Shown here one piece after another: positions 2,266 through 17,445 of a stretch of 37,129 bases of DNA. The DNA is taken from IMG/VR virus record IMGVR_UViG_2872174743_000010, positions 1 to 37,129 of that record; one strand, given 5' to 3'. Under the pieces are notes generated by a model. The model was not told where the DNA came from and made no database searches. It was given only the letters and a program-made list of their open reading frames with translations. How positions within the stretch are numbered: position 1 is the stretch's first letter; every line of letters begins with the position of its first letter. Position numbers and translations under genes: made by a program. This DNA comes from a virus. Taxonomy: Duplodnaviria > Heunggongvirae > Uroviricota > Caudoviricetes.

Positions 2266-2420
2266 AAGTGAATTTTGTGATGCGGTGAATGCGGCTAAGC
2301 GCACGCGGCACAGTTAAAAGTCATGTTAGTCCTTATTGGTTTGGGTGGGAAAGCCGACTGTAATTGTTAACTGGTTAACGTCACCTGGAGGCACTAGGCA
2401 CCGCATCACAAAATTCACTT
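2266..2420. repeat. Perfect 22-bp inverted repeat pair (2266-2287 and 2399-2420) enclosing 111 bp
   Basis: AAGTGAATTTTGTGATGCGGTG and its exact reverse complement CACCGCATCACAAAATTCACTT, anchored to the codons of the overlapping antisense ORFs. Confidence 0.85.
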
Positions 2421-2442
2421 CGGTGATGAAAGGAAAGAGAAA

Positions 2443-2655
2443 ATGTTGAATGTAGCTATTGAAAACCAGAACGGGTGGAATTATAATGCACCTGCACCTC
2501 ATAAAACGGGCGCCGGGATTAGCACCCCGAAAGTTACTCGAGCGCATAACCGCGCTGAAGCGGTTTTTTTTATGCGTAATGCACAGCCACATTCAAATTA
2601 TGGTGAGGCGTGCGGGGCAGCCGCAAGGCTGGCCGGGTTCTCGAGTGACCGGTAG
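2443..2655 (+). CDS. Hypothetical small protein (70 aa)
   Basis: ATG preceded by AGGAAAGAGAAA; no recognisable motif; overlaps the 5' extension of the Rha ORF. Confidence 0.25.
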   Translation: MLNVAIENQNGWNYNAPAPHKTGAGISTPKVTRAHNRAEAVFFMRNAQPHSNYGEACGAAARLAGFSSDR

Positions 2656-2737
2656 TGCTAACCCTGTGCGTCTCACCACCCATGAGATTAGCACCTCTGC
2701 TGGTGAGTTAATTAACTTATCACTTGAGGATGTCATT

Positions 2738-3283
2738 ATGGCTACTACCCTTTCTCACCCTGACGTAACCATCGAAAATGGTCGCGCCGTCACTACTTCT
2801 ATTTCGATTGCTGAGTTTTTTGGCAAGCAGCATCACCATGTTGTTCAAAAAATAGAATCCCTCGAATGTTCTGAACTATTTTTAACCAGCAACTTTTCGC
2901 GGGTTAAATTCGAACACCGCGGCAATTCTTATAACGCCTACCAAATCACCAAAAACGGCTTCGTTTTCCTGGTGATGGGCTTCACGGGCAAAAAAGCCGC
3001 CACATTCAAGGAAGCCTACATTGCTGAGTTCGACCGCATGGAGGCCGAACTGCGCCAGAATAACACCCCACCTGCTGACAAGATGATTCCGGGTGATGGT
3101 CGCACTCTGGTTGTTCACTTCGACAAATTCGGCAATGTCGAATTCACCGAAACCGTTCCTGATGGCGCACTGGTCTGTACCCTGGAGACTTTCCGGTTTT
3201 ATCTGGAAAAACAGGGCTGGACTCTTGTAAACCGGGGCGCAATTAAAAACATGACCGTAGAGCAGTTGCTTTCCTTAAAATAA
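2738..3283 (+). CDS. Rha-family phage regulatory protein
   Basis: From the Met at 2738 (GAGGA upstream): MATTLSHPDVTIENGRAVTTSISIAEFFGKQHHHVVQKIESL...NAYQITKNGFVFLVMGFTGKKAA, the conserved Rha N-terminal domain. Confidence 0.8.
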   Translation: MATTLSHPDVTIENGRAVTTSISIAEFFGKQHHHVVQKIESLECSELFLTSNFSRVKFEHRGNSYNAYQITKNGFVFLVMGFTGKKAATFKEAYIAEFDRMEAELRQNNTPPADKMIPGDGRTLVVHFDKFGNVEFTETVPDGALVCTLETFRFYLEKQGWTLVNRGAIKNMTVEQLLSLK

Positions 3284-3406
3284 AAATGGAGCTATGGATA
3301 TGAACCCCATGCTTGATTATTGTTTTACACCTGCCCTCAGGCTGAGGTAGCCTGAGTTTAACGGACACTCCTTCCTGAAATAGAATGGCATCAGAAGGAG
3401 CTAATA

Positions 3407-3680
3407 ATGAGCAGAAAAAACCAACGTTACTCTAAAGAGTTCAAAGCCGAAGCTGTCAGAACGGTTCTTGAAAATCAACTTTCGATCAGTGAAGGCGCTT
3501 CCCGATTATCCCTTCCTGAAGGCACTTTAGGACAATGGGTTACCGCCGCCAGAAAAGGGCTCGGTACTCCTGGTTCCCGCACGGTGGCTGAACTGGAATC
3601 TGAAATTCTGCAACTGCGTAAGGCGTTAAATGAAGCTCGCCTTGAGCGATATATATTAAAAAAAGCAACAGCGTATTTTG
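3407..3680 (+). pseudogene. IS600 OrfA, truncated at the IS66-family insertion point
   Basis: MSRKNQRYSKEFKAEAVRTVLENQLSISEGASRLSLPEGTLGQWV...ILKKATAYF; contains the A-rich slippery run TTAAAAAAAG; reading continues into the IS66 inverted repeat (GTAAGCG at 3681). Confidence 0.8.
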
Positions 3681-3766
3681 GTAAGCGTAAACTGACCGCC
3701 GTATGTAGCCATTAAGCCTGTATTGGTAACGTAGGTGCCCACCTTTTCAACTAGTGGACACCTGTT

Positions 3767-4186
3767 ATGGAACAGAAAGCATTATCTGCAGAACCCCGCA
3801 GATCATTTTCAAATGAGTTTAAACTTCAAATGGTTAAACTGGCTTCACAACCAGGAGCCTCTGTTGCCCGTATTGTCCGGGAACACGATATCAATGATAA
3901 CCTGCTGTTCAAATGGCTCAGGCTCTGGCAGAACGAAGGGCGCATATCGCGGCGTCTTCCGGTAACAACCTCTTCTGACACTGGCGTTGAATTATTACCT
4001 GTGGAGATAACGCCGGATGAGCCGAAAGAACCGGTGGCTGCTCTTACTCCGTCTTTATCTACTCAGACTACAGTTAGTGCCAGCTCCTGCAAGGTGGAGT
4101 TCCGTCACGGTAACATGACGCTGGAAAATCCTTCACCAGAGCTGCTCACAGTGTTGATCCGTGAACTGACCGGGTGGGGACGATAA
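3767..4186 (+). CDS. tnpA: IS66-family accessory protein TnpA
   Basis: 139 aa with ...FSNEFKLQMVKLASQPGASVARIVREHDINDNLLFKWLR..., the IS66 orf1 pattern; stop overlaps the next gene. Confidence 0.85.
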   Translation: MEQKALSAEPRRSFSNEFKLQMVKLASQPGASVARIVREHDINDNLLFKWLRLWQNEGRISRRLPVTTSSDTGVELLPVEITPDEPKEPVAALTPSLSTQTTVSASSCKVEFRHGNMTLENPSPELLTVLIRELTGWGR

Positions 4187-4533
4187 TCTCACTCCCGTCA
4201 GGCACCCGCATCTGGCTCGTTGCTGGGATAACCGATATGCGTAAGTCTTTCAACGGGCTGGGTGAACAGGTACAGCATGTGCTGAATGATAATCCCTTCT
4301 CCGGTCACCTGTTCATCTTCCGTGGCCGACGGGGTGACATGATTAAAATCCTGTGGGCTGATGCTGATGGTCTGTGCCTGTTCACCAGACGCCTGGAGGA
4401 AGGCCAGTTTATCTGGCCTGCTGTGCGTGACGGCAAGGTATCCATTACCCGCTCGCAACTGGCAATGCTCCTCGATAAGCTGGACTGGCGTCAGCCAAAA
4501 ACATCCCGCCTTAACGCACTGACAATGTTGTAA
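4174..4533 (+). CDS. tnpB: IS66-family TnpB (orf2)
   Basis: GTG start overlapping the tnpA end; ...GTRIWLVAGITDMRKSFNGLGEQV...GHLFIFRGRRGDMIKILWADADGLCLFTRRLEEGQFIWP. Confidence 0.85.
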   Translation: MGTIISLPSGTRIWLVAGITDMRKSFNGLGEQVQHVLNDNPFSGHLFIFRGRRGDMIKILWADADGLCLFTRRLEEGQFIWPAVRDGKVSITRSQLAMLLDKLDWRQPKTSRLNALTML

Positions 4534-4563
4534 AAATGTCATGGCCGGATTATAAAAACGGCC

Positions 4564-6156
4564 ATGAATCAAAAATACCTCATTCGCATTGCAGAACTGG
4601 AATGCCAGCTCCGTCAGAAAGACCAGCAACTGAGTCTGGTTGAAGAGACGGAGGCCTTCCTGCGCTCTGCACTGGCCCGCGCCGAAGAAAAGATCGAAGA
4701 AGATGAACGGGAAATAGAACATCTGCGGGCTCAGATAGAAAAACTGCGCCGGATGCTGTTCGGTACCCGTTCTGAAAAACTGCGTCGTGAAGTTGAACAG
4801 GCTGAGGCCCTGCTGAAACAACGCGAACAGGACAGTGATCGTTACAGTGGGCGGGAAGACGATCCGCAGGTTCCCCGCCAGTTGCGACAGTCTCGTCATC
4901 GTCGCCCGTTACCGGAGCATCTGCCCCGCGAAATAAATCGCCTGGAGCCAGAAGAAAGCTGTTGCCCGGAGTGTGGCGGTGAGCTGGATTATCTGGGGGA
5001 AGTCAGCGCAGAACAACTGGAACTGGTGAGCAGCGCTCTGAAAGTGATCCGCACAGAACGGGTAAAAAAAGCCTGTACAAAATGTGACTGCATCGTTGAA
5101 GCACCGGCACCATCCCGTCCGATAGAGCGTGGTATCGCGGGCCCGGGGTTACTTGCCCGCGTGTTAACGGGAAAATACTGCGAACACCTGCCACTGTATC
5201 GTCAGAGTGAAATTTTTGCCCGTCAGGGTGTCGAACTGAGCCGTGCATTACTCTCCAACTGGGTTGACGCGTGCTGCCAGTTAATGACGCCGCTGAATGA
5301 TGCTCTGTACCGTTATGTGATGAACAGCCGCAAAGTTCACACTGATGACACACCAGTAAAAGTGCTGGCACCGGGCAGGAAGAAGGCGAAAACAGGATAT
5401 ATCTGGACGTATGTCCGGGATGACAGGAATGCCGGTTCGCCAGAGCCTCCGGCGGTCTGGTTCGCCTACTCACCGGACCATCAGGGTAAACATCCGGAGC
5501 AGCACCTTAGTCCCTTCCGGGGTATCCTGCAGGCAGATGCGTTTAATGGTTACGATCGGCTGTTCAGTGCCGAACGAGAAGGCGGCGCGTTGACGGAAGC
5601 AGGATGCTGGGCTCATGCGCGGCGCAAAGTCCACGATGTATATATCAGTACCAAAAGCGCGACAGCGGAAGAAGCCCTGAAACTAATCGGTGAGCTGTAC
5701 GCCATCGAGCACGAAATACGCGGGTTGCCGGTGTCTGAACGCCTGGCGGTCAGGCAAATGCAGAGTAAACCGCTACTGACTTCCCTGTATAAGCTGATGC
5801 AGGAGAAAGAACAGACGTTATCGAAAAAATGCCGTCTGAGAGATGCGTTCCGGTATATCAGGAAGCACTGGGTTGCGTTGTGCAACTTCAGTGATGATGG
5901 TCTGGCTGAGGCGGATAATAATGCCGCGGAAAGAGCGCTTCGTGCAGTCTGTCTCGGAAAGAAAAACTTTATGTTCTTCGGCAGCGATCACGGTGGAGAG
6001 CGTGGTGCGCTACTGTACGGGCTGATCGGCACCTGCCGACTGAACGGTATCGATCCGGAAGCGTATCTGCGCTATATCCTGAGCGTACTGCCGGAATGGC
6101 CTTCCAACCGTGTTGACGAACTCCTGCCATGGAACGTAGCACTCACCAATAAATAA
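4564..6156 (+). CDS. tnpC: IS66-family transposase TnpC
   Basis: 530 aa; coiled-coil N-terminus, CCPECGG zinc motif, DDTPVKVL, WAHARRK, ADNNAAERALR and [15 protein letters not shown] motifs, all characteristic of IS66 transposases. Confidence 0.9.
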   Translation: MNQKYLIRIAELECQLRQKDQQLSLVEETEAFLRSALARAEEKIEEDEREIEHLRAQIEKLRRMLFGTRSEKLRREVEQAEALLKQREQDSDRYSGREDDPQVPRQLRQSRHRRPLPEHLPREINRLEPEESCCPECGGELDYLGEVSAEQLELVSSALKVIRTERVKKACTKCDCIVEAPAPSRPIERGIAGPGLLARVLTGKYCEHLPLYRQSEIFARQGVELSRALLSNWVDACCQLMTPLNDALYRYVMNSRKVHTDDTPVKVLAPGRKKAKTGYIWTYVRDDRNAGSPEPPAVWFAYSPDHQGKHPEQHLSPFRGILQADAFNGYDRLFSAEREGGALTEAGCWAHARRKVHDVYISTKSATAEEALKLIGELYAIEHEIRGLPVSERLAVRQMQSKPLLTSLYKLMQEKEQTLSKKCRLRDAFRYIRKHWVALCNFSDDGLAEADNNAAERALRAVCLGKKNFMFFGSDHGGERGALLYGLIGTCRLNGIDPEAYLRYILSVLPEWPSNRVDELLPWNVALTNK

Positions 6157-6249
6157 GCGTCAATACGGTGCTCCGTTGACGCCTGATATGACTTTCCGTG
6201 TCAAACCGGAATCTCTAATTTTGACGATTTTCTTTTTAGGTTTAATTCC

Positions 6250-6435
6250 CTGAGGGCGACGTAGCAGTAAATCCGACGGTGAATCACGCTGATATTCGCG
6301 GGTTGGATACCGCATTACAGAGGTCCGTCATATGAGCCTGCCACTTTCTTACGTCGCGAATCAGCTTTGTTCCGCCGTCGCCAAGCGCTAACGTGGGTTA
6401 CTCTTGTACCGGGCTACGTCGCCTTCAGGGAACTG
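6250..6435 (-). ncRNA. Candidate structured non-coding RNA (bridge-RNA-like) in the IS110-family non-coding end
   Basis: Non-coding stretch just downstream of the transposase stop with nested complementarity: CCCTGAGGGCGACGTAGC (about 6248-6265) pairs 17 of 18 with GCTACGTCGCCTTCAGGG (about 6413-6430); GCTGATATTCGCG (about 6288-6300) pairs with CGCGAATCAGC (about 6355-6365); repeated TACGTCGC motifs. Strand and ends are inferred, not shown. Confidence 0.3.
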
Positions 6436-6449
6436 GTTATTCTCATTTT

Positions 6450-7577
6450 TTATTTGTGACATTGTGGTTGTTGTGCGACAGACATTGCTATTCGGCCCAT
6501 ATCCCAGATAAAACCCGCCAGCTCACGTGCAACAGCAACAATTGTAATATTGACATTCTTTCCTTTGGCCTGAAGTTTTCGATACCTCTTACAGAGCCTG
6601 AGTTGAGCATCCCATGCTCTGTCAATGACGGGGCGGGGTAAATTTTCCTGCCTTTTTTGTATTGCCGGACTGATGCGTGCCGGATGACGGTAACTCCACG
6701 CTGCCTCGACCAATAGCTTTCTGGCATAGCTGTTTCCGGCTTTGGTAATGCTGCCCTGATGTCTGCTTCCACCCGATGAATATTCTGATGGCGTGATACC
6801 AAACCATGACATCAGTTGTCGTGGATGTTCAAAACGGGTCAGATCACCCAGTTCAGAAATTAATCCAACCGCAGTAATAAACTGAATCCCTCGCATGGCT
6901 TGCAGCGCCTCTACTACCGGATACAGCCTCCATTCGGTAACGGCCTCCTTCAGGGCGGATTCCAGCCGTTCACATTGTGCCTGCCGGTCTTCTATTGTAC
7001 GACGGTGTTCGTCAAAAGCTAATTGTCGCCAGGGACTTTCGAATGAGTATTTGCTGAGCCAGCGTCGGTGTGCAGGGCCCCAATCTGCTCGCCCGACATA
7101 ATGGACCCCATGAACCAGAAGAAACGATTTCAGACGTTGCCTTGCATGCCGTAAATCATCGCGGGCAGATGCCCATGCCCGGGCCAAATCCCGGAATGCC
7201 TCATCTTCAATGCCGGGTACGTAGACAGCAGAAAGATCTCCTGCACGCAGTGAACGCACAAGTCTGATGGCATCACGGCGATCGGTTTTAACCCGCTCCC
7301 CCGGTTTTTTCGGGATAAGTGAGGGGGCGCAGACCATGCAGTCAAAACCGGATTTCACCAGCCGACGATAAAGTCCATAACCACAGGGCCCCGCTTCATA
7401 AACGATACTGACCTGCGATGACTTTGACCTGAGACGTTTACAAAGATTCTGAATATCAGTAGGTGATGTGCCAATTTTACCCATCAGTTCAACAGGTTCT
7501 GAATTGATAGCATAAGCGACAGTAATCGATTCTTTGTGAACATCTAACCCGACGTACAATGTGTTATTGTTGTTCAT
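6450..7577 (-). CDS. IS110-family transposase/recombinase (DEDD type)
   Basis: Start at the Met of MNNNNTLYVGLDVHKESITVAYA (GGAGG-like RBS upstream); N-terminal RuvC-like DEDD region and C-terminal ...GSITKAGNSYARKLLVEAAW... serine-bearing domain typical of IS110/IS1111 transposases. Confidence 0.85.
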   Translation of the reverse strand: MNNNNTLYVGLDVHKESITVAYAINSEPVELMGKIGTSPTDIQNLCKRLRSKSSQVSIVYEAGPCGYGLYRRLVKSGFDCMVCAPSLIPKKPGERVKTDRRDAIRLVRSLRAGDLSAVYVPGIEDEAFRDLARAWASARDDLRHARQRLKSFLLVHGVHYVGRADWGPAHRRWLSKYSFESPWRQLAFDEHRRTIEDRQAQCERLESALKEAVTEWRLYPVVEALQAMRGIQFITAVGLISELGDLTRFEHPRQLMSWFGITPSEYSSGGSRHQGSITKAGNSYARKLLVEAAWSYRHPARISPAIQKRQENLPRPVIDRAWDAQLRLCKRYRKLQAKGKNVNITIVAVARELAGFIWDMGRIAMSVAQQPQCHK

Positions 7578-7779
7578 GCTGGCCTCCGTGGTGGAAATAC
7601 CGGGGGGTAGCAACAGCTCACCCATGCGGCTCTGACAACGATGTTAACCCGCGTTAAATATCCCACGTTGGCCAGCATCTGTCTCACGGAAAGTCATACT
7701 GCCTTACGTATTTTGCACAGGAGTCGCTGATAAATACGCGTTAATCGAACAATGGCGACAACAATTTCCCATTGAAGCG

Positions 7780-8598
7780 ATGTGTCAGGTATTTGGTGTA
7801 TCCAGGAGCGGTTATTACAACTGGGTACAGCATGAACCCTCAGACAGAAAACAAAGTGATGAGCGGCTAAAACTGGAGATTAAGGTGGCACATATCCGCA
7901 CTCGCGAAACATATGGAACCCGGCGGCTCCAGACGGAGCTGGCAGAGAATGGCATCATCGTTGGTCGTGACCGACTGGCACGTCTTCGTAAGGAGCTAAG
8001 GCTACGCTGTAAGCAGAAACGCAAGTTCAGAGCGACTACGAACCCGAACCACAATCTGCCAGTTGCGCCAAATCTGCTGAACCAGACGTTCGCTCCTACA
8101 GCACCAAATCAGGTCTGGGTGGCGGACCTGACGTATGTTGCCACACAGGAGGGATGGTTGTACCTCGCTGGCATCAAAGATGTTTATACGTGCGAAATTG
8201 TCGGCTACGCCATGGGAGAGCGCATGACAAAAGAGCTGACAGGTAAAGCCCTGTTTATGGCGCTCAGGAGCCAGCGCCCACCTGCCGGGTTAATCCACCA
8301 CTCTGATCGAGGTTCACAGTACTGCGCATACGATTACCGGGTCATACAGGAGCAGTCTGGTCTGAAAACATCAATGTCGCGTAAAGGTAACTGTTACGAC
8401 AACGCTCCGATGGAAAGCTTCTGGGGAACGCTGAAAAATGAGAGCCTGAGCCACTATCGTTTTAATAACCGGGATGAAGCCATCTCAGTAATACGGGAAT
8501 ACATTGAGATTTTCTACAATCGTCAGCGTCGTCACTCTCGTCTGGGGAATATCTCCCCGGCAGCCTTCAGGGAAAAATATCATCAGATGGCTGCTTAA
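7780..8598 (+). CDS. IS600 OrfB (DDE catalytic part)
   Basis: MCQVFGVSRSGYYNWV...VWVADLTYV...HHSDRGSQYCA...NCYDNAPMESFWGTLKNE..., the IS3-family integrase core; the orfB frame is open upstream from about 7648, as expected for an OrfAB fusion. Confidence 0.85.
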   Translation: MCQVFGVSRSGYYNWVQHEPSDRKQSDERLKLEIKVAHIRTRETYGTRRLQTELAENGIIVGRDRLARLRKELRLRCKQKRKFRATTNPNHNLPVAPNLLNQTFAPTAPNQVWVADLTYVATQEGWLYLAGIKDVYTCEIVGYAMGERMTKELTGKALFMALRSQRPPAGLIHHSDRGSQYCAYDYRVIQEQSGLKTSMSRKGNCYDNAPMESFWGTLKNESLSHYRFNNRDEAISVIREYIEIFYNRQRRHSRLGNISPAAFREKYHQMAA

Positions 8599-8977
8599 AA
8601 AAAGAACAAATGGTAGTGTCCGCTATTGCCAGTACACCTCAGGCAGACCATCAGTCATACCGGGATTAAAAAATGGCTGTGGAGAATCAGAAAAATTCTC
8701 CAGCAAAAAGGTGACCCGGATTTAATACAATGTGATTACCATCTCTGCAATAAACAGTTTTTACCTGAAAAAGCTTTTACTGGCGAGCTTATTTATATGC
8801 ATGGAAACATGATTGCCAGAAAGAAACGAAAATATTGCGGTGCAGCTTGTGCCGAAAAAGACAAGATGGCACACGAACTTTAATTAACTGAATATTCGAA
8901 ACTGAATTTATGCCAGCAATGGGGTAATGCTGCCAACTTACTGATTTAGTGTATGATGGTGATTTTAAGGTGCTTGC

Positions 8978-9253
8978 GTGGCTTCCATTTCCATCAGATG
9001 TCCTTCCTGCTCCGCTACTGAAGGCGTGGTGCGTAACGGCAAAAGCACTGCCGGACATCAGCGCTATCTCTGCTCTCATTGCCGTAAAACATGGCAACTA
9101 CAGTTCACTTACACCGCCTCTCAGCCCGGTACGCACCAGAAAATCATTGATATGGCCATGAATGGCGTCGGATGTCGCGCCAGTGCACGCATTATGGGCG
9201 TTGACCTCAACACGGTTTTCCGTCACTTAAAAAACTCAGGCCGCAGTCGGTAA
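8978..9253 (+). CDS. insA: IS1 InsA
   Basis: [43 protein letters not shown]... Confidence 0.9.
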
Positions 9254-9279
9254 CCTCGCGCATACAACCGGGCAGTGAT

Positions 9280-9571
9280 GTGATTGTCTGCGCTGAAATG
9301 GACGAACAGTGGGGCTACGTCGGTGCTAAATCACGTCAGCGCTGGCTGTTTTACGCGTATGACAGGATACGGAGGACGGTTGTGGCGCACGTCTTCGGTG
9401 AACGCACTCTGGCCACACTGGAGCGTCTTCTGAGCCTGCTGTCGGCCTTTGAGGTCGTGGTATGGATGACGGATGGCTGGCCGCTGTATGAATCACGCCT
9501 GAAGGGAAAGCTGCACGTTATCAGCAAGCGTTACACTCAGCGCATTGAGCGACATAATCTGAATCTGAGAC
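9280..9571 (+). pseudogene. insB: IS1 InsB, 3'-truncated by the IS66-family insertion
   Basis: InsB frame reads ...[14 protein letters not shown] and then continues into IS66 DNA (RKRTA, stop), whereas the intact copy at 25340-25843 continues [13 protein letters not shown]... Confidence 0.75.
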
Positions 9572-9642
9572 GTAAGCGTACAGCCTGAACCGTCTGGTCA
9601 GAATCTGACGAATTAGACAAAGTGGTGTCCACCAAATAAGTA

Positions 9643-10044
9643 GTGGGAACCAAAGTGTCAGATATGCAGAAAAATGTGAATCCCGGCAGGCGAAAAGGCT
9701 GCCCTAATTATCCTCCCGAATTTAAACAGCAGCTCGTTGCTGCCTCCTGTGAACCCGGGATATCCATCTCAAAACTTGCTCTTGAAAATGGCATTAACGC
9801 CAATCTGTTGTTCAAATGGCGACAACAATGGCGCGAGGGAAAGCTGCTATTACCTTCTTCAGAGAGCCCCCAGCTACTTCCTGTGACTCTCGATGCAGCT
9901 GCCGAACAGCCAGAATCGCTCGCAGAGGATCCGGAAACCCTCAGTATCAGCTGTGAGGTAACGTTCCGGCACGGGACGCTCCGCTTCAATGGCAATGTCA
10001 GCGAAAAGCTCCTGACTCTGCTGATACAGGAACTGAAGCGATGA
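9643..10044 (+). CDS. tnpA: IS66-family TnpA (copy 2)
   Basis: ...PEFKQQLVAASCEPGISISKLALENGINANLLFKWRQQWREG...; start uncertain (GTG at 9643 or ATG at 9664). Confidence 0.8.
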   Translation: MGTKVSDMQKNVNPGRRKGCPNYPPEFKQQLVAASCEPGISISKLALENGINANLLFKWRQQWREGKLLLPSSESPQLLPVTLDAAAEQPESLAEDPETLSISCEVTFRHGTLRFNGNVSEKLLTLLIQELKR

Positions 10045-10388
10045 TCCCGTTACCTTCCGGGACCAAAATTTGGCTGGTTGCCGGTATCACCGATATGAGA
10101 AATGGCTTCAACGGCCTGGCGGCAAAGGTGCAGACGACGCTGAAAGACGATCCGATGTCAGGTCACGTTTTTATCTTCCGTGGGCGTAATGGCAGTCAGG
10201 TAAAGCTCCTCTGGTCTACCGGCGATGGACTGTGTCTGCTGACCAAACGGCTGGAGCGCGGCCGCTTCGCCTGGCCGTCAGCCCGGGATGGCAAAGTGTT
10301 CCTCACACCGGCACAGCTGGCGATGCTCCTTGAAGGTATCGACTGGCGGCAGCCTAAAAGACTGCTTACGTCCCTGACTATGTTGTAA
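10041..10388 (+). CDS. tnpB: IS66-family TnpB (copy 2)
   Basis: MIPLPSGTKIWLVAGITDMRNGFNGLAAKV...; ATG overlaps the tnpA stop (ATGA). Confidence 0.85.
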   Translation: MIPLPSGTKIWLVAGITDMRNGFNGLAAKVQTTLKDDPMSGHVFIFRGRNGSQVKLLWSTGDGLCLLTKRLERGRFAWPSARDGKVFLTPAQLAMLLEGIDWRQPKRLLTSLTML

Positions 10389-10436
10389 GCCTCTTTATCC
10401 TGGTCGACGCTGAATGAGCCTGGTAATATACCCGGT

Positions 10437-11975
10437 ATGAGCAGCTCACTTCCTGACGATATCAATGCACTGAAACGTCTCCTTGCCGAACAGGAGGCGC
10501 TGAACCGTGCCCTGCTGGAAAAGCTGAACGAGCGTGAACGCGAAATAGACCATCTGCAGGCACAGCTGGATAAGCTGCGCCGGATGAACTTCGGCAGCCG
10601 CTCCGAAAAAGTCTCCCGTCGTATCGCACAGATGGAAGCTGACCTGAAGGCACTTCAGAAAGAAAGTGATACCCTTACCGGTCGGGTTGACGACCCGGCC
10701 GTGCAGCGCCCGCTGCGTCAAACCCGCACCCGCAAACCGTTCCCCGAATCACTCCCCCGCGATGAAAAACGGCTGCTGCCGGCAGCGTCATGCTGCCCGG
10801 AATGTGGAGGCTCACTGAGCTATCCGGGTGAGGATGCCGCCGAACAGCTGGAGTTGATGCGCAGCGTCTTCCGGGTTATCCGGACTGTACGTGAAAAGCA
10901 TGCCTGTACTCAGTGCGATGCCATCGTGCAGGCCCCCGCGCCTTCACGGCCCATCGAGCGGGGTATCGCAGGACCGGGGCTGCTGGCCCGCGTGCTGATC
11001 TCAAAGTATGCAGAGCACACCCCGCTGTACCGTCAGTCTGAAATGTACGGCCGCCAGGGCGTGGAGCTGAGTCGTTCACTGCTGTCGGGCTGGGTGGATG
11101 CATGCTGCCGGCTACTGTCACCGCTGGAAGAAGCGCTTCAGGATTATGTGCTGACTGACGGTAAGCTCCATGCTGATGACACGCCTGTCCCGGTGCTGTT
11201 GCCAGGCAATAAGAAAACGAAGACCGGGCGGTTATGGACCTACGTTCGTGACGACCGTAACGCCGGGTCAACGCTGGCGCCGGCGGTGTGGTTCGCTTAC
11301 AGCCCGGACAGAAAAGGCATCCATCCGCAGACCCATCTTGCGGGGTTCAGTGGTGTACTGCAGGCGGATGCATACGCCGGGTTCAACGAGCTGTACCGGG
11401 ATGGCCGGATAACGGAAGCCGCCTGTTGGGCTCACGCCCGCCGTAAAATCCACGATGTGCACGTTCGCACCCCGTCAGCCCTGACGGAGGAAGCGCTGAA
11501 ACGGATCGGCGAACTGTACGCCATCGAGGCAGAGATAAGGGGAATGACGGCGGAGCAGCGCCTTGCCGAACGTCAGTTGAAAACGAAACCGCTGCTGAAA
11601 TCCCTGGAAAGCTGGCTGCGTGAAAAGATGAAAACCCTGTCGCGACACTCAGAACTGGCGAAAGCGTTCGCATACGCCCTGAACCAGTGGCCGGCGCTGA
11701 CGTACTATGCAGATGATGGCTGGGCTGAGGCGGACAATAACATCGCTGAAAATGCGTTGCGGATGGTCAGTCTGGGCCGCAAAAACTACCTGTTCTTCGG
11801 TTCGGATCATGGAGGAGAGCGGGGAGCGCTGCTGTACAGCCTGATCGGGACGTGCAAACTGAACGGAGTGGAGCCAGAAAGCTACCTCCGCTATGTACTT
11901 GACGTCATAGCCGACTGGCCGATAAACCGGGTCGGCGAACTGCTCCCCTGGCGCGTAGCACTGCCGACTGAATAA
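10437..11975 (+). CDS. tnpC: IS66-family transposase TnpC (copy 2)
   Basis: 512 aa with the same motif set as copy 1 ([48 protein letters not shown]), but clearly diverged from it. Confidence 0.9.
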
Positions 11976-12012
11976 CACATCCCCGTCAATACGGTTCTTG
12001 CTGCACGCTTAC

Positions 12013-12910
12013 CATTGACGGGCGTGGTCTGGCTGGCGAGATCAGCAAGGAAACGGGTAAATCCCTGCGTGATAACGCTGAATACGTTAATCCCTGGGCG
12101 TCTCTGCATCGTGTTCAGCAATTCCGCTTCTTTGGTATTCCAGGGCGTCAGGCTTACCGTGAACTGCGGTTGTTGGCTGGTCAGGCGGCAAGGCAGCAGG
12201 GTGACAAAAAAGCAGGTGCGCCGGTACTGGATAACCCGCGCCTTGATGCCATCCTGGCTGCTGCTGATGCTGGCTGTTTTGCCACCTACATTATGAGGCA
12301 GGGCGGCGTGCTGGTTCCTCGCAAATATCACTTGATCAGAACCGCTTATGAAATCAATGAAGAGCCGACCGCCTATGGCGATCACGGTATTCGTATTTAT
12401 GGCATCTGGTCACCCATTGCAGAAGGCAAGATCTGCACTCATGCAGTGAAGTGGAAAATGGTTCGTAAAGCCGTTGACGTTCAGGAGGCGGCAGCCGACC
12501 AGGGCGCTTGCGCCCCTTGGACTCGTGGCAATAACTGTCCCCTTGCTGAAAATTTGAACCAACAGGAGAAAGATAAATCAGCTGATGGGAACCCCAGAAC
12601 GGACATTACCAGCATGGATGACAAGGAGTTGCACGATTACCTGCACAGTATGAGCAAAAAAGAGCGCCGGGAACTGGCAGCAAGGTTACGCCTGGTGAAA
12701 CCGAAACGGCGTAAAGACTACAAACAGCGAATTACAGACCATCAGCGACTGCAGCTCGTGTATGAGCTGAAGTCCAGAGGATTTGATGGCAGCGAGAAAG
12801 AGGTCGATTTACTCCTTCGCGGAGGCAGTATTCCGTCAGGAGCAGGCCTGCGTATCTTCTATCGGAACCAGCGTTTGCAGGAAGATGATCAGTGGCGGAA
12901 CCTGTATTAA
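12013..12910 (+). pseudogene. Phage replication protein fragment (P2 gpA-like C-terminal part), 5'-truncated by IS66 copy 2
   Basis: The reading frame is open from the first base after the IS66 end with no start codon ([17 protein letters not shown]...[13 protein letters not shown]... to stop at 12910); position and orientation fit the end of the P2/186 early operon. Identity to gpA is by context, not by recognised motif. Confidence 0.4.
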
Positions 12911-13002
12911 TTACGCGGGTTAACAATTCGTGCTCTTAATAATACCAGGCATATCAGGCTGATGAACGTAAAAAAACGTTTTACATCAGTAAGATTATCA
13001 TA

Positions 13003-13022
13003 TACTGTAAATATAAACAGTG
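13003..13022 (+). promoter_or_regulatory. LexA (SOS) box overlapping a -10-like hexamer
   Basis: TACTGTAAATATAAACAGTG is CTGT-N8-ACAG with an AT-rich spacer, a near-consensus LexA operator; TATACT immediately overlaps it; about 40 nt upstream of the first gene of the pair. Confidence 0.6.
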
Positions 13023-13063
13023 GTTATGCATGCAGTATTGCGTGTGGTGTCATAGGAGGAAAG

Positions 13064-13252
13064 ATGCAGGACTATTTTTTGGAGTCTTTGAAGCTCCAGC
13101 GCATTGATTTTTTTCTTAAGCTTGTAGCGGCTAGTGAGTGTAGTGATGAAGAGAAGGGGCTGGCTCTGCAGTGGGTTTCTGAATTGACTGATGAACTCAT
13201 GGCAAAAATCAGAACCCACGAATACAACCGCTCAATGGATGTCATCAGCTGA
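13064..13252 (+). CDS. Small protein, first gene of the LexA-controlled pair (possible Tum-like antirepressor part)
   Basis: 62 aa from the Met preceded by AGGAGG: MQDYFLESLKLQRIDFFLKLVAASECSDEEKGLALQWVSELTDELMAKIRTHEYNRSMDVIS; no motif recognised. Confidence 0.45.
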   Translation: MQDYFLESLKLQRIDFFLKLVAASECSDEEKGLALQWVSELTDELMAKIRTHEYNRSMDVIS

Positions 13253-13262
13253 GGTGACTTTT

Positions 13263-13496
13263 ATGCGCATTGAAATAATGATCGATAAAGAGCAGAAGAT
13301 TAGCCAGTCTACCCTGGACGCTCTTGAATCCGAGCTTTACCGCAATCTGCGCCCTCTGTATCCCAAAACGGTAATTCGTATCCGCAAAGGTAGCTCTAAC
13401 GGTGTGGAACTTACCGGATTGCAACTGGACGAAGAAAGAAAACAAGTGATGAAAATTATGCAGAAGGTGTGGGAAGACGACAGCTGGCTGCATTAA
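13263..13496 (+). CDS. DinI-like protein
   Basis: MRIEIMIDKEQKISQSTLDALESELYRNLRPLYPKTVIRIRKGSSNGVELTGLQLDEERKQVMKIMQKVWEDDSWLH, with the DinI pattern (MRIE..., ...WEDD.W); GAGGTGA upstream. Confidence 0.75.
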   Translation: MRIEIMIDKEQKISQSTLDALESELYRNLRPLYPKTVIRIRKGSSNGVELTGLQLDEERKQVMKIMQKVWEDDSWLH

Positions 13497-13631
13497 GAAA
13501 CGTTGCTGGCGTCTGAACTAGCTTCTGGCGTCAGCAAGGTTGAACAACGAGCCCTTGCGAGGCGTTAGCTCTGTAGTGCATGTCTATGCCGCATGAGATC
13601 GCATGATCGTTTGAGGATCGTTTTTGCTAAG

Positions 13632-13656
13632 GCCCGCCAGAACTGGCGGGCTTTTG
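13632..13656 (+). terminator. Intrinsic terminator candidate after the DinI-like gene
   Basis: GCCCGCCAG-AA-CTGGCGGGC followed by TTTTGCG. Confidence 0.5.
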
Positions 13657-13700
13657 CGTAGATCATGCAGGTGCATGAAAACCACTACATAAAGCGGGCA

Positions 13701-13719
13701 GGCGTGGCGGGGATACGAT
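13701..13719. other. cos-like site (19 nt)
   Basis: GGCGTGGCGGGGATACGAT; the first 13 nt and last 2 match the cohesive-end sequence of 186 as remembered (GGCGTGGCGGGGAAAGCAT), about 16 of 19; lies between the early and late blocks. Confidence 0.35.
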
Positions 13720-13788
13720 TGCGCGCTAGGTATAAGTGTGTAAAATAATTCCAAAATAAATCATCACTAATGAAGTGAGAGGGTAATA

Positions 13789-15438
13789 ATGTTAGTCAAG
13801 AAAAATAAAAATTATAGTTTATATTTTTTAATTACAAATAATCAACAGATATCTGATTCTGGTAATTATATAAAAATAGTCCCATCAAGAAGCGATTGGA
13901 ATGATTTTGGATATTTGAGTAGAGTCGAAATATCTATTTTTAATAAAAAAGAGTGTAAGGATATAATTTCACTGAATGGTTATATTGGTTTTTTGAATTC
14001 AGAGGAGGAACGAAATGGAAAAGCAGAACTGATAAGGCGAGTGAAAAAAAAGGAAGAATCTAATTTAAAGGATGAGGGGTTTAATGATTATTTTGTCATG
14101 CTTCAGGATATGAATAATTATCGAAGACTAGTAAGATTTTTTGGGGTGAATGAATCCAAATATATATTAAATTTCATTAATGATGTTGTTTCTAAGAAAA
14201 GTGACGCTAGTGCAGAGAATTTGAGGAAAAAAGCAATCTCTTCTGATATCTTTAATAAATCTTTCATTAGAGAGTCTGAGTCGTATTTTACTTTCAAAAA
14301 TGCAGGAACAGTTCTTTCCGGTATTCAATATGAGGAGTTGGGTAATTTATCACAGCACATCAAGATTAGCTATTCGAATAAAGTTAATGAAGAAGATGTA
14401 TCTTATGTTTTTAATTTTGATCACGAGCATGATTTACCAAAAAGAATTTCCATAATTATAGGCGAGAATGGTGTAGGAAAAAGCCAAACGCTTAGAGAAA
14501 TCGCATTGGCTGCGATTAAAGGAAAGGATAATTTGGTGGCTGTAGTTGATTCTAACGGTGTGAGCATTGAAGAACGAATTCAAATTAGTAGGCTCATTGC
14601 TTTTTCTCCAACAAATGAAAGTAAGTGTTCATTTCCAACCGATAAAAGAATAAAATCATTGATATGGTACAAAAGATTGACTTTAAATCGTGAATCAAAA
14701 TCCAAATTAAACTTGAATGATTTAATAGTGCAACTAGCGAGGAGTAACGACGCTATCGGCTATAATCAAAGGTGGAATATATTTGTTGATGCACTGAGTG
14801 TTCTAAATAGTAACAACGATTTAGTAATCAAATGTGGCGGTGAAAATTCACCATTTGTTAAATTAAATGAGCTTAATTCTCGAGGCGAAGAATCTAGACT
14901 ATCATTATATTCTGAAATTATTCTCTCTGGCGAGCCTTTGAGGCTTATTGAAAATAAATGTTACCCTTTGAGTAGTGGGGAAATATCGTTTATTAAGTTT
15001 TGTGTACAAGTTTGTTTGTATATTGAGAATGGGACTCTTCTATTAATAGATGAGCCAGAAACACATCTCCATCCTTCATTTATTAATAAATTTATGGCAT
15101 TGCTTGATAATTTATTAGAAAAGACAGGCTCTTCAGCTATCATAGCAACGCATTCGGTTTATCTTGTTCGGGAGGTTTTTAAGGAGCAAGTGACAATACT
15201 CAGAAGACGAGATGATGGGGTAATTGTTAGCGAAAAACCGAGATTGAGTACTTTTGGGGCGAATATAGGAAATATCTCATATTTTGTTTTCGGTGAGAGT
15301 GAACCAACTCAAATTTTAAATAAAGTAAAAAACAATATAATTGCAAAGAATATGTCTTGGGATGATGTTGAATCTAAATATAGCGAGGACTTATCACTTA
15401 ATGTATTAACTGCGTTGAGAAATGAAATGGGCAATTGA
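13789..15438 (+). CDS. ABC-type ATPase (AAA_21/AAA_15-like), Septu PtuA-like, with a ~215 aa N-terminal extension
   Basis: 549 aa; Walker A GENGVGKS (aa 225-232, nt 14461-14484), signature-like YPLSSGE (about aa 393-399), Walker B LLLIDEPE (aa 417-424), H-loop-like IIATHS (about aa 451-456); very AT-rich; GAGAGGG RBS. Confidence 0.7.
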   Translation: MLVKKNKNYSLYFLITNNQQISDSGNYIKIVPSRSDWNDFGYLSRVEISIFNKKECKDIISLNGYIGFLNSEEERNGKAELIRRVKKKEESNLKDEGFNDYFVMLQDMNNYRRLVRFFGVNESKYILNFINDVVSKKSDASAENLRKKAISSDIFNKSFIRESESYFTFKNAGTVLSGIQYEELGNLSQHIKISYSNKVNEEDVSYVFNFDHEHDLPKRISIIIGENGVGKSQTLREIALAAIKGKDNLVAVVDSNGVSIEERIQISRLIAFSPTNESKCSFPTDKRIKSLIWYKRLTLNRESKSKLNLNDLIVQLARSNDAIGYNQRWNIFVDALSVLNSNNDLVIKCGGENSPFVKLNELNSRGEESRLSLYSEIILSGEPLRLIENKCYPLSSGEISFIKFCVQVCLYIENGTLLLIDEPETHLHPSFINKFMALLDNLLEKTGSSAIIATHSVYLVREVFKEQVTILRRRDDGVIVSEKPRLSTFGANIGNISYFVFGESEPTQILNKVKNNIIAKNMSWDDVESKYSEDLSLNVLTALRNEMGN

Positions 15439-16303
15439 AATGAATAAATTAAAAAGACCTGTTTTTAAAGATTATTCTGCATTTAAAAAACTATCTGCAA
15501 ATAAGAGATTAAAACATCATTCTGTTCTGAATGGACAGGATACATTTATACTTAATGCATATAGATCGTACATAAAGAATAAAGGGTATCTTAATGTCAA
15601 TTCTTGTGGCGTATTGAGTAACAATATTGCTGAAGCTTTGAGATATTATTATAACAATCCCGCAAAGTGTTTATCTATAATTGATGATATAAGAGCAGCT
15701 AATTCTAACTCTCTATGTCCAATGTGTGGTTCAATGCATAGCGGGACTTTGGATCATGTTTTACCCAAGGAAAACTATCCAGAATTTTCTTTATTCACTA
15801 AGAATTTGGTTCCTGCTTGCAAATGTAATACTTTCAAAAGTACTACTATAGCTAATTCTGCAGGCCATCGGATGCTGCATCCATATTTTGATAATATATT
15901 AAAACAAAGATTAATATGTGCTAATTTTTCTAAATTAGGGCGAACACCTACAATTGATGTAAAAATCATAATTGACCCAATGTCACCAGAATATAACAAT
16001 GTTAAGTATCATCTTGATAATGTTGTTATCAAGAATAATATTAAGGGGTATTTGTCTGAACAATGGGAGTCGTTTTACTTATATCCTGAGCTTGTTATTA
16101 GAGGACTGAATAAGAGTCTTTCTACTTATAGCGATGTATATGAGTTGTTGACTCGCGAGTTGTTGCTGTTGGATGAAAAACATAAAGGTAAAAATAATTG
16201 GAATTCGGTTTTTGTAGCTGGGTTAATTCGACCTGATGTGATTAGGTGGATACTCTGTGAATTACATTTAGGTAACAGAAGTCCAGACGGTCGTCTCATA
16301 TGA
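15422..16303 (+). CDS. HNH endonuclease, Septu PtuB-like
   Basis: 293 aa; HNH core CPMCGSMHSGTLDHVLPKENYPEFSLFTKNLVPACKCN (aa 99-136); start overlaps the upstream stop by 17 nt (a second in-frame ATG sits 1 nt after the stop). Confidence 0.7.
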   Translation: MKWAIEMNKLKRPVFKDYSAFKKLSANKRLKHHSVLNGQDTFILNAYRSYIKNKGYLNVNSCGVLSNNIAEALRYYYNNPAKCLSIIDDIRAANSNSLCPMCGSMHSGTLDHVLPKENYPEFSLFTKNLVPACKCNTFKSTTIANSAGHRMLHPYFDNILKQRLICANFSKLGRTPTIDVKIIIDPMSPEYNNVKYHLDNVVIKNNIKGYLSEQWESFYLYPELVIRGLNKSLSTYSDVYELLTRELLLLDEKHKGKNNWNSVFVAGLIRPDVIRWILCELHLGNRSPDGRLI

Positions 16304-16410: not shown

Positions 16411-17445
16411 TTAAGTAGCTAGTTTATAACTATCAAATTTAACAATGTTATCACTTACCAATTTATTTATTTCCATCATTCTTTTTTGTAACGGTATTAA
16501 CTCGTTACGTACAAACACCAGGCTCGCCTTCTCCACATCCCCAAACCCCCCGACATTATTAGGCATAATCCCCATCATTTGCGGTGGCACACGATGCGCC
16601 GCCATCATGTCATCCCGGCTCACGTTCTTGATGTTCAGAAACTCATCCTTCGCCGCGACTTCTGACAACGGGATGATCTGAAGCCCGTCCTTTTTGCCGT
16701 TAGGCGAGTACATAAACAGATTGCGGAAGTTACCTGGTCCTTTGGCGCTTTTCATCGCATTGCGGAGGTTGTTCACATCCTCCTGGTTTTGCGCGGCATC
16801 GGTCATGTACATGATGAAGCCTGCATGACTGCCGTTAATGTAATACTATCGGCGGAACAGCGTGGCGGACTCGTTGAGCAGGGCTGACGGAATGGCAGAA
16901 AGGTAACCTGGCAGGCCGTAGATCTCTTGGTTGATGTCCGGTTCCATCAGATGAAAGATGCTTCCTTTCGTGAACTGATACGGCTGCGTGGTCATGCCGT
17001 ATTGCACAAACCAGTAGGTATCCAGGTCTAATCCGCGTCGGGTGTATTTTGCCAGAGCAGGCTCAAGAGCGATGACCTCTCCGAACCGGTTTGTGCGTTT
17101 CTCCAGGTAAGCGTTACCAAATACCAGATAATCCTGCACAAAACGTGAAAAAGCCTGCTGGCTGAGCAGCGGGTGAGGGATGTAGGTACTGATCAGAATG
17201 TTGCATTTCACCGCAATTGGTGAACTGTGATGCACGGCGGCGCGGAAGGTGCGCGCCAGTCCGTCAAAACTCACTGGCGGCTCATACCAGCGATCTGTCT
17301 GTACGCATTCCACATAGTCCAGTAGTTCACGGCGGTCCAGAACCGGAACGGGATCGCCGAAGCTGAATGCTTCGGCTGAAGTCTGGTTTTTATGCTGGGT
17401 CTGTTTCGTCGCCGCAGCGCGGTTCTTCTTACTCTTTCCCATCAA
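16411..17445 (-). pseudogene. Q: Portal protein (P2 gpQ-like) interrupted by an in-frame TAG
   Basis: Track ORFs 16846..17445 and 16411..16812 are in the same frame; protein reads ...ATLFRR-stop-YYINGSHAGFIMYMTDAAQ...; the TAG is at 16846-16848 on the minus strand. Confidence 0.8.

What the first reader, a model, noticed from the sequence alone, without database searches (positions are those of the whole stretch)
12981..13496. SOS-controlled two-gene module ending in a DinI-like protein (Tum-type antirepressor arrangement)
A near-consensus LexA box (CTGT-N8-ACAG at 13005-13020) overlaps a -10-like TATACT and precedes a 62-aa ORF and a DinI-like ORF with good ribosome-binding sites, followed by a terminator. 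In phage 186 a LexA-repressed operon at this position encodes the Tum antirepressor, whose C-terminal part is DinI-like. This prophage therefore looks 186-like (SOS-inducible) rather than P2-like (non-inducible), and the pair may be a split or two-component Tum.
Basis: partly seen in the sequence, partly recalled or inferred. Interest (0 to 1): 0.5.

Follow-up and report, generated by a model that had tools for sequence, protein, structure and literature searches.

The report
LexA-controlled split Tum antirepressor operon
This is the already-known DNA-damage switch of Fels-2/186-type prophages, a LexA-repressed promoter driving a small antirepressor gene and a DinI-like gene, sitting here in a prophage copy that is broken and can no longer respond to it.

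Summary
A strong LexA box lies at 13003-13022 (17 of 20 to consensus, heterology index about 4.4, by far the best site in the window). It overlaps the -10 region. A 62-aa ORF (13064-13252) and a 77-aa DinI-family ORF (13263-13496) follow, then a terminator.

The PsP3 record annotates the same arrangement as tumA/tumB. Lemire et al. 2011 state that Fels-2 and PSP3 have tum split by a stop codon, with the upstream gene being the antirepressor.

The Phollow paper (2025) deleted 'tum' of E. coli HS prophage DuoHS. Its primers match this window exactly at the borders of ORF1, and the deleted protein is 61/62 identical to ORF1. That mutant, and a lexA(Ind-) strain, do not induce with mitomycin C.

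ORF1 is a remote homologue of the N-terminal part of 186 Tum (HMM E 6e-6, hhalign E 3e-5).

One caveat: this copy is defective. An IS66 element cuts gene A at 12013, the window holds no int/CI/apl/cII, and the portal gene has a stop codon.

Side finding: Fels-2-type promoters carry a colicin-like double LexA operator, and the window's second box is weakened.

The parts
12980..12985 (+). -35 hexamer TTTACA of the tum-type promoter
   Evidence: It is invariant in 8 diverged Fels-2-type promoters while the spacer diverges. It corresponds to the annotated -35 TTCACA of 186 p95.
13001..13008 (+). -10 region, either TATACT (13001-13006, 15-nt spacer) or TACTGT (13003-13008, 17-nt spacer, the p95 equivalent)
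   Evidence: TATACTGTA is invariant in 8 relatives. The 186 record places the p95 -10 on the first six bases of the LexA box. The generic scan found no canonical promoter.
13003..13022 (+). LexA box 1, TACTGTAAATATAAACAGTG
   Evidence: It matches the consensus at 17/20 and is unique in the window, with 0 of 100 shuffles producing such a site. Its heterology index is 4.3-4.5 against 13.0 for the next best site. Each of 9 related loci has exactly one CTGT-N8-ACAG, always between gene A and tum/ORF1.
13018..13037 (+). Weakened second LexA-like box (core GTGG-N8-GCAG sharing G13020 with box 1), a colicin-type double operator
   Evidence: Box 2 is conserved in 8 relatives, 7 of which have ACAG. The Fels-2 operator is 34/37 identical to colicin-like bacteriocin promoters. 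Its heterology index is 7.0-11.5 in relatives and 13.5 here.
13054..13059 (+). Ribosome-binding site AGGAGG of ORF1
   Evidence: Read directly from the sequence. AGGAGG is invariant in 8 relatives.
13064..13252 (+). ORF1, 62 aa, the TumA-type antirepressor ('tum' of DuoHS, STM2728 of Fels-2)
   Evidence: It hits phrog_698 at E 3.6e-38. It has remote homology to the 186 Tum N-terminal part. It is 61/62 identical to ECHS_RS04495, the gene deleted as tum in PMC12055606; the deletion primers match window 13044-13066 and 13250-13272.
13263..13496 (+). ORF2, 77 aa, a DinI-like protein (TumB type)
   Evidence: It hits Pfam PF06183 at E 6.6e-23. It is 41% identical to 186 Tum 71-145, 78% to PsP3 TumB and 100% to the Fels-2 DinI family protein. 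It matches PDB 1GHH DinI at E 2.7e-6.
13499..13541 (+). Stable hairpin directly after ORF2, without a U tract
   Evidence: RNA fold of 13490-13670, z-score -4.1. Its function was not shown.
13629..13656 (+). Intrinsic terminator (stem 13632-13639/13644-13651, loop GAAC, then UUUU)
   Evidence: RNA fold. The segment 13578-13726 is 94.6% identical to the region behind the orf97-like gene of Fels-2 and DuoHS.

Best explanation
This is the SOS induction operon of a Fels-2-type (Felsduovirus-like, 186-related) P2-family prophage, in the 'split Tum' form.

In undamaged cells LexA sits on the box at 13003-13022, which covers the -10 region, and keeps the promoter off. In relatives a second overlapping box probably adds a second LexA dimer.

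DNA damage activates RecA and LexA cleaves itself. A bicistronic mRNA is then made that ends at the terminator near 13650.

- **ORF1 (62 aa)** is the antirepressor. By analogy with 186 Tum it binds the 186-type CI repressor of this phage lineage and takes it off its operators, which starts lytic growth.
- **ORF2 (77 aa)** is a DinI-like protein. It most likely binds RecA filaments and tunes the SOS signal.

In this window the module is intact, but the element it belongs to is a remnant with no CI, int, apl or cII, a truncated gene A and a nonsense codon in the portal gene. Here the operon can only act in trans on a related co-resident prophage, act on RecA, or do nothing.

**Shown:** the sequence features, the homologies, and the genetic requirement for the 61/62-identical gene and for cleavable LexA in E. 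coli HS.

**Inferred:** LexA binding at this copy, ORF1-CI contact, and the role of ORF2.
For: **LexA box.** The statistics are. The box and the promoter layout are conserved in 9 related loci from several Peduoviridae genera whose flanks do not align.

**186 and PsP3 records.** The 186 record has p95, LexA site and tum at the same place. The PsP3 record annotates tumA as 'similar to 5' end 186 tum; UV induction of prophage' and tumB as 'similar to dinI and 3' end of 186 tum'.

**Literature.** Lemire 2011 states that Fels-2 and PSP3 have tum split by a stop codon, with the upstream gene the antirepressor and the downstream gene the DinI homologue. [quoted passage not shown] The deletion primers and locus tag identify the deleted gene as the ORF1 homologue, and the deletion leaves the DinI-like gene in place.

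**Homology.** ORF1 relates to the Tum N-terminal part by the reciprocal PHROG hits and by hhalign at E 3.3e-5. ORF2 is in the DinI family. The CI of DuoHS is a 186 CI homologue, 33% identical, E 7e-38. ESSI-2-type phages carry a LexA box plus an ORF1-like gene without any DinI gene, which fits ORF1 being the autonomous antirepressor.
Against: - Pairwise BLASTP finds no similarity between ORF1 and 186 Tum or PsP3 TumA. The homology rests on profile methods, and the hhalign probability is only 72% with shallow alignments.
- No biochemical data exist for ORF1-type proteins binding CI. The antirepressor mechanism is transferred from 186 Tum.
- The statement about PSP3 is a personal communication cited second hand, and I could not read Bunny et al. 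2002.
- No canonical sigma-70 promoter was detected by the generic scan.
- In this window there is no CI to act on, so function in this copy is unproven.
Confidence: 0.88

Rival explanations
1. The module is a decaying, functionless leftover. The operon is intact only because the prophage was inactivated recently, and it plays no role in the present host.
For: - Gene A is cut by IS66 at 12013 and no int, CI, apl or cII lies within the 12 kb upstream.
- The portal gene has a nonsense codon.
- This junction occurs in none of 5426 complete E. coli genomes.
- The remaining prophage DNA is 99.6% identical to an intact prophage, so the decay is recent.
- The window is the only one of 8 compared promoters with the A-to-G change in box 2.
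Against: Both ORFs, both ribosome-binding sites, box 1 and the terminator are unchanged compared with functional relatives. Up to 4 copies of this module occur per E. coli genome, so a co-resident target CI is plausible. A DinI-like protein needs no phage partner.
Confidence: 0.4
2. ORF2, the DinI-like protein, is the real effector and ORF1 is only an accessory or leader peptide. The operon would then be mainly a RecA/SOS modulator rather than an antirepressor switch.
For: ORF2 is the only product with a curated family assignment. RefSeq and phage annotations name only it and call ORF1 hypothetical. The DinI-like part is kept in fused form in 186, and internal starts give free DinI-like products that 'modulate SOS induction'.
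Against: An in-frame deletion of only the ORF1 homologue abolishes induction in E. coli HS. ESSI-2-type phages have ORF1-like genes with a LexA box and no DinI gene. In PSP3 the upstream gene is reported to carry the antirepressor activity.
Confidence: 0.06
3. The LexA-like box is a chance AT-rich palindrome and the operon is not SOS controlled.
For: CTGT-N8-ACAG alone is expected 0.55 times in a window of this size.
Against: The 20-mer score is far outside both the random and the window background. The box is conserved at the same place in 9 loci whose flanks have diverged. A lexA(Ind-) host cannot induce DuoHS, whose promoter is identical through the -35, the -10 and box 1.
Confidence: 0.02

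Closest known systems
tum of E. coli HS prophage DuoHS (ECHS_RS04495) with the adjacent DinI-like gene ECHS_RS04500; also STM2728 and STM2726.1 of Salmonella phage Fels-2
   Same: The operon is the same. The promoter, box 1, the ribosome-binding sites and the gene order are identical. ORF1 is 61/62 identical to the HS protein and 98% to Fels-2. ORF2 is 100% identical to the Fels-2 protein. The chromosomal site next to ybjL is also the same.
   Different: - The window's box 2 has two changes relative to HS, including A13032G.
- The orf97-like gene that follows in Fels-2 and HS is missing here.
- The cargo downstream differs; here it is a PDC-M01/Septu-like pair.
- The window's prophage lacks its left half.
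tumA/tumB of Salmonella phage PsP3
   Same: A LexA box overlaps the -10. A roughly 60-aa upstream gene is followed after a stop codon by a 77-aa DinI-like gene, and the position is right after gene A. ORF2 is 78% identical to TumB.
   Different: ORF1 and TumA belong to different PHROG families (698 versus 1993) and show no BLASTP similarity. PsP3 has a single LexA box and a 20-nt leader, against 41 nt here.
Tum of coliphage 186 (p95 SOS operon)
   Same: The element has the same position in the genome, a LexA operator on the -10, an N-terminal part that is remotely homologous to ORF1, a C-terminal part that is 41% identical to ORF2, and a target repressor of the same family.
   Different: In 186 the two parts are one 146-aa polypeptide with internal starts, there is a single LexA box, and orf97 follows. 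Here there are two separate genes with a 10-nt gap.
Double SOS operators of colicin operons
   Same: Relatives of this promoter carry two LexA cores sharing one base. The Fels-2 sequence is 34/37 identical to colicin-like bacteriocin promoters, and box 2 is 100% identical. PMC2994835 describes such operators as binding two LexA dimers.
   Different: In colicin promoters the boxes lie just downstream of the -10, whereas here box 1 covers it. The window's own box 2 is weakened, with a heterology index of 13.5.
dinI-antirepressor operons of Gifsy prophages (GfoA, GfhA, GftA)
   Same: They are LexA-controlled operons pairing a small antirepressor with a DinI homologue.
   Different: The gene order is reversed, the antirepressors are unrelated in sequence, and the repressors targeted belong to another family.

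Membership tests
186-type Tum SOS operon (LexA-controlled antirepressor of P2-family phages) | LexA operator overlapping the promoter, located between replication gene A and the antirepressor gene | tested here: met
186-type Tum SOS operon (LexA-controlled antirepressor of P2-family phages) | Antirepressor part homologous to the N-terminal half of 186 Tum | tested here: met
   Met by profile methods only. 186 Tum residues 1-70 hit phrog_698 at E 5.9e-6, in register. ORF1 hits phrog_8554 at 2.4e-8 and phrog_1993 at 2e-3. The hhalign comparison gives E 3.3e-5 at 72% probability. BLASTP is negative.
186-type Tum SOS operon (LexA-controlled antirepressor of P2-family phages) | DinI-like part homologous to the C-terminal half of Tum | tested here: met
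   41% identity over 75 residues, E 3e-24.
186-type Tum SOS operon (LexA-controlled antirepressor of P2-family phages) | Single fused 146-aa polypeptide | tested here: not met
   A stop codon at 13250-13252 and a 10-nt gap separate the two ORFs. This is the split tumA/tumB form known from PsP3 and Fels-2.
186-type Tum SOS operon (LexA-controlled antirepressor of P2-family phages) | Cognate 186-type CI repressor in the same element | tested here: not met
   CI is absent from the window, where homology to intact prophages starts only at 12013 inside gene A. It is present in intact relatives; DuoHS CI is 33% identical to 186 CI.
186-type Tum SOS operon (LexA-controlled antirepressor of P2-family phages) | The protein binds CI and prevents operator binding, and is required for SOS induction | not testable with these tools
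   Genetic requirement is published for the 61/62-identical gene of E. coli HS. Biochemistry exists only for 186 Tum (Shearwin 1998, as cited).
DinI family (Pfam PF06183) | Score above the Pfam gathering threshold over the full domain | tested here: met
   81.3 bits against a cut-off of 24.2, covering profile positions 1-63 of 63.
Chromosomal DinI equivalog (NCBIfam NF007893) | Score above the curated equivalog cut-off of 111 bits | tested here: not met
   42.7 bits. ORF2 is DinI-like, not the host DinI.
E. coli-type LexA (SOS) box | 20-bp site scoring within the range of proven boxes and above background | tested here: met
   Heterology index 4.3-4.5 against 0.6-12.8 for 18 proven sites, and 0 of 100 random sequences reach it.
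Colicin-type double SOS operator | Two LexA cores overlapping by one base, both within the score range of functional boxes | tested here: inconclusive
   The geometry is present. Box 2 scores 7.0-11.5 in relatives, while colicin box 2 scores 6.2-8.6. It scores 13.5 in the window, just outside the range of proven sites.

The most novel reading that the evidence does not exclude
The Fels-2-type tum promoter uses a colicin-type double LexA operator. Two overlapping boxes are conserved across at least four Peduoviridae genera, and the Fels-2 sequence is 34/37 identical to colicin operators. That would suggest exchange of a ready-made 'late SOS' operator between Col plasmids and P2-family phages. 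It would also give these prophages a high, delayed induction threshold. In this window box 2 is weakened (A13032G) in an orphaned operon, so the remnant might express a trans-acting antirepressor and DinI-like protein earlier in the SOS response than intact relatives do, and so influence co-resident prophages. I could not establish whether the double operator has been described before for these phages.
Probability: 0.3. Interest if true: 0.35.

Novelty: already known. Interest (0 to 1): 0.12.

Why it matters
It matters little as a discovery. The split Tum operon is annotated in PsP3, discussed in the literature for Fels-2 and PSP3, and validated genetically in E. coli HS.

It is useful for annotation. 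The 62-aa gene is still labelled 'hypothetical protein' in RefSeq and in most phage records, although it occurs in 1146 of 5426 complete E. coli genomes. It can be named a TumA-type SOS antirepressor.

The analysis also shows that this copy belongs to a dead prophage, so the presence of the module should not be read as inducibility.

The colicin-like double operator is a modest lead on how the induction threshold is set.

Tried and rejected
- **BLASTP.** Pairwise comparison of ORF1 with 186 Tum and with PsP3 TumA gave no alignment. Homology needed profile methods.
- **Generic scans.** The sigma-70 scan found no promoter in 12800-13900. The terminator scan missed the hairpin at 13632-13651 and instead flagged a weak hairpin inside the ORF1/ORF2 junction. 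I relied on comparison with p95 and on RNA folding instead.
- **Core motif.** CTGT-N8-ACAG alone is not statistically meaningful.
- **Family and structure libraries.**
  - Pfam, NCBIfam and PADLOC have nothing for ORF1.
  - There is no solved structure for ORF1 or the Tum N-terminal part.
  - There is no Rfam family in 12850-13800.
- **Literature.** Bunny et al. 2002 (PMC151935) is not held. A full-text search for the box 2 string found no paper.
- **Long reading frame.** I considered the 96-aa frame starting at 12962, which two phage records annotate in its 97-98-aa form. I rejected it because it would start upstream of the -35, and because close relatives differ by single-base indels in the A-run at 12970-12976.
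- **Searches not run.** I did not run the large protein database searches or structure prediction, because the identity of the module was settled without them.

Full report
**What is there**

The region reads as the first-stage reader described.
- A -35-like TTTACA lies at 12980-12985.
- The sequence TATACTGTAAATATAAACAGTG spans 13001-13022, with the LexA core CTGT-N8-ACAG at 13005-13020.
- An AGGAGG ribosome-binding site lies at 13054-13059.
- A 62-aa ORF runs from ATG 13064 to the stop at 13250-13252.
- A GAGG site follows, then a 77-aa ORF at 13263-13496.

The 96-aa frame that starts at 12962 is not credible. It would begin upstream of the promoter. Close relatives also differ by single-base indels in the A-run at 12970-12976.

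**Is the LexA box more than chance?**

The 16-bp core alone is not significant: 0.55 matches are expected in the window. The 20-mer is. It has 17 of 20 matches to TACTGTATATATATACAGTA, it is the only such site in the window, and none appeared in 100 shuffles.

I built a matrix from 18 E. coli SOS boxes listed in Table 4 of PMC3009722.
- The heterology index of the window's site is 4.3-4.5.
- The proven sites score 0.6-12.8 when left out one at a time.
- The next best site in the window scores 13.0.
- No random sequence out of 100 reached the observed value.

This matrix is not the original Lewis matrix, so the numbers are comparable in scale only.

Conservation gives a stronger argument. Each of nine related loci has exactly one CTGT-N8-ACAG, always between gene A and the tum-like gene. 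The nine loci were:
- phage 186
- PsP3
- Fels-2
- two intact E. coli prophages
- ESSI2_ev015
- ESSI-2
- Yersinia MHG75
- Erwinia EtG

All share the layout TT(T/C)ACA, then 17-18 nt, then TACTGT. That is how the 186 record annotates the mapped p95 promoter and its LexA site.

**The two proteins**

ORF2 is a DinI-family protein.
- It matches Pfam PF06183 at E 6.6e-23.
- It is 41% identical to residues 71-145 of 186 Tum.
- It is 78% identical to PsP3 TumB and 100% identical to the Fels-2 DinI family protein.
- It is related to the solved DinI structure 1GHH.
- It is below the NCBIfam equivalog cut-off for host DinI.

ORF1 has no Pfam, NCBIfam or PADLOC match and belongs to phrog_698, which has no known function. 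BLASTP sees no similarity to 186 Tum or PsP3 TumA. Profile methods do.
- The first 70 residues of 186 Tum hit phrog_698 in register at E 5.9e-6.
- ORF1 hits phrog_1993, the PsP3 TumA family, at 2e-3.
- Both ORF1 and 186 Tum hit phrog_8554, at 2.4e-8 and 3.4e-12.
- An hhalign comparison of small alignments of the two groups aligns residues 5-47 with 5-48 at E 3.3e-5 and 72% probability.

The shared pattern is LxE...(Q/E)R(I/V)...(K/R)L.A...C....(K/R).(L/I)AL..(V/I/L).E. The ESSI-2-type proteins bridge the two groups.

**What is already known**

The PsP3 GenBank record annotates tumA as 'similar to 5' end 186 tum; UV induction of prophage'. It annotates tumB as 'similar to dinI and 3' end of 186 tum'.

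Lemire et al. [quoted passage not shown] They cite Bunny et al. 2002 and a personal communication for this.

The Phollow paper (PMC12055606) shows that E. coli HS carrying a delta-tum prophage DuoHS, or a lexA(Ind-) allele, does not lyse or make virions after mitomycin C.
- Its supplementary primer table gives locus tag ECHS_RS04495.
- It also gives primers whose sequences match window 13044-13066 and 13250-13272 without mismatch.
- The deleted gene is therefore the ORF1 homologue, from start to stop codon, with the DinI-like gene left in place.
- ECHS_RS04495 differs from ORF1 at one residue. The promoter is identical through the -35, the -10 and box 1.
- The CI of DuoHS is a homologue of 186 CI, 33% identical, E 7e-38.

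The module is common. It occurs in 1146 of 5426 complete E. coli genomes and in 56 phage records, mostly from Klebsiella, Escherichia and Salmonella. ORF1 is almost always labelled hypothetical.

**Arrangements in the family**

| Arrangement | Examples |
|---|---|
| Fused Tum | 186, Yersinia MHG75, Erwinia EtG |
| Split, with a TumA-type upstream gene | PsP3 |
| Split, with an ORF1-type upstream gene | Fels-2, DuoHS, SEN8, 500465-1, ST437-OXA245phi4.1, MLG42, this window |
| ORF1-type gene alone behind a LexA box, no DinI gene | ESSI2_ev015, ESSI-2 |

The last arrangement fits the view that the small upstream protein is the autonomous antirepressor and the DinI part is an accessory.

**Mechanism**

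- LexA on box 1 blocks the -10. This step is inferred here, and it is supported by p95 and by the lexA(Ind-) phenotype.
- RecA-stimulated LexA cleavage releases transcription of ORF1 and ORF2.
- ORF1 inactivates the 186-type CI by binding. This is shown biochemically only for 186 Tum and genetically for the DuoHS gene.
- ORF2 binds RecA filaments and tunes the SOS signal. This is inferred from DinI and from the 186 record's note that truncated Tum forms 'modulate SOS induction'.
- Transcription ends at a GC hairpin plus UUUU at 13629-13656.

That terminator segment corresponds to the one behind the orf97-like gene of Fels-2 and DuoHS. The orf97-like gene itself is missing here, replaced by 83 nt at 13495-13577.

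**The caveat for this copy**

Homology to an intact prophage (UPEC-245U, 99.6% identity) begins at 12013, inside gene A at about codon 505.
- To the left lie an IS66 element and then further insertion sequences of the IS1, IS3, IS110 and IS66 families, plus remnants of a lambdoid prophage.
- No int, CI, apl, cII or dam is present in the window.
- The portal gene has a stop codon at 16846-16848.
- The IS66/gene A junction is found in none of the 5426 complete E. coli genomes.

So the lineage is SOS-inducible, but this element cannot produce phage and has no repressor of its own in the window. The operon can act only in trans or on RecA, or it is an inert recent remnant.

**Side finding**

In Fels-2-type promoters a second LexA-like core follows box 1 and shares one base with it (GT[G/A]G-N8-ACAG).
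- In an alignment of eight diverged promoters, the -35, TATACTGTA, box 1, box 2 and the ribosome-binding site are conserved while the spacer and leader diverge.
- A 44-nt query from Fels-2 matched 1190 plasmid records, mostly small mobilizable ones.
- In both hits I inspected, the match lies in the promoter of a colicin-like bacteriocin gene. The operator there is 34/37 identical to the Fels-2 operator, and box 2 is 100% identical.

Box 2 heterology index by promoter:

| Promoter | Box 2 heterology index |
|---|---|
| Colicin-like bacteriocin promoters | 6.2-8.6 |
| Phage relatives | 7.0-11.5 |
| This window | 13.5 |

The window alone has ACAG changed to GCAG, at 13032. The 186, PsP3 and ESSI-2 types have a single box. 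I could not establish whether this double operator has been described for these phages.

**Verdict**

It is already known, so the interest is low. The useful additions are the firm identification of the 'hypothetical' 62-aa gene as the experimentally validated tum of this lineage, the finding that the prophage copy here is defective, and the colicin-like double operator.

Noticed in passing
window 13018-13037; L001 3118-3137; L005 19573-19592; L011 1218-1237; L012 1218-1237: A second LexA-like box overlaps box 1 by one core base, giving a colicin-type double SOS operator. It is conserved in 8 Fels-2-type promoters, and the Fels-2 sequence is 34/37 identical to colicin-like bacteriocin promoters. 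In the window it is weakened by A13032G (heterology index 13.5 against 7.0-11.5 in relatives).
   Followed up: partly
window 1-12012, with the junction at 12013: The P2-family prophage is truncated inside replication gene A by an IS66 element. The 12 kb to the left is a mosaic of IS3-, IS66-, IS110- and IS1-family elements and lambdoid remnants (YdaT-like gene, HTH repressor, Rha/Ash gene). No complete E. coli genome in the collection has this junction.
   Followed up: partly
window 16846-16848 (- strand), within the portal gene at 16411-17442: The portal (Q) gene has an internal stop at codon 199, further evidence that the prophage is defective.
   Followed up: partly
window 13789-16303: An AAA_21-type ATPase (549 aa) and an HNH endonuclease (293 aa) match the PADLOC candidate defence system PDC-M01 and, more weakly, Septu PtuA. 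They sit in the variable cargo site between tum and the portal gene. Fels-2 and E. coli HS carry different genes there.
   Followed up: partly
window 13495-13577: The orf97-like gene that follows tum in 186, EtG, Fels-2 and DuoHS is absent and replaced by 83 nt. The terminator segment behind it (13578-13726) is retained.
   Followed up: partly
window 2494-2570 and 2596-2683 (+): Rfam matches to isrK (63.8 bits) and C4 antisense RNA (78.6 bits) overlap the start of a Rha/Ash-family ORF (2459-3283). This looks like a P1 c4-ant or Gifsy-1 isrK-type antirepressor control module in the lambdoid remnant.
   Followed up: no
window 34352-34430 (-) and 34510-36195 (-): The RybB sRNA and ybjL lie at the right end, so the prophage occupies the same rcdA/ybjL chromosomal site as DuoHS of E. 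coli HS and the UPEC-245U prophage.
   Followed up: partly
L006 860-1113; L007 863-1125: ESSI2_ev015 and Cronobacter phage ESSI-2 have a LexA box and an ORF1-like gene (70-74 aa) but no DinI-like gene. In ESSI-2 the ORF is not annotated at all.
   Followed up: partly
L014 299-589; L016 296-589: Phage records 500465-1 and ST437-OXA245phi4.1 annotate the ORF1 homologue as 97-98 aa, starting upstream of the promoter. This is probably an over-extended gene call.
   Followed up: partly
window 22229: An 18-nt in-frame deletion relative to the UPEC-245U prophage, at the position of its head completion gene. It is the only indel in 13 kb of 99.6% identity.
   Followed up: no
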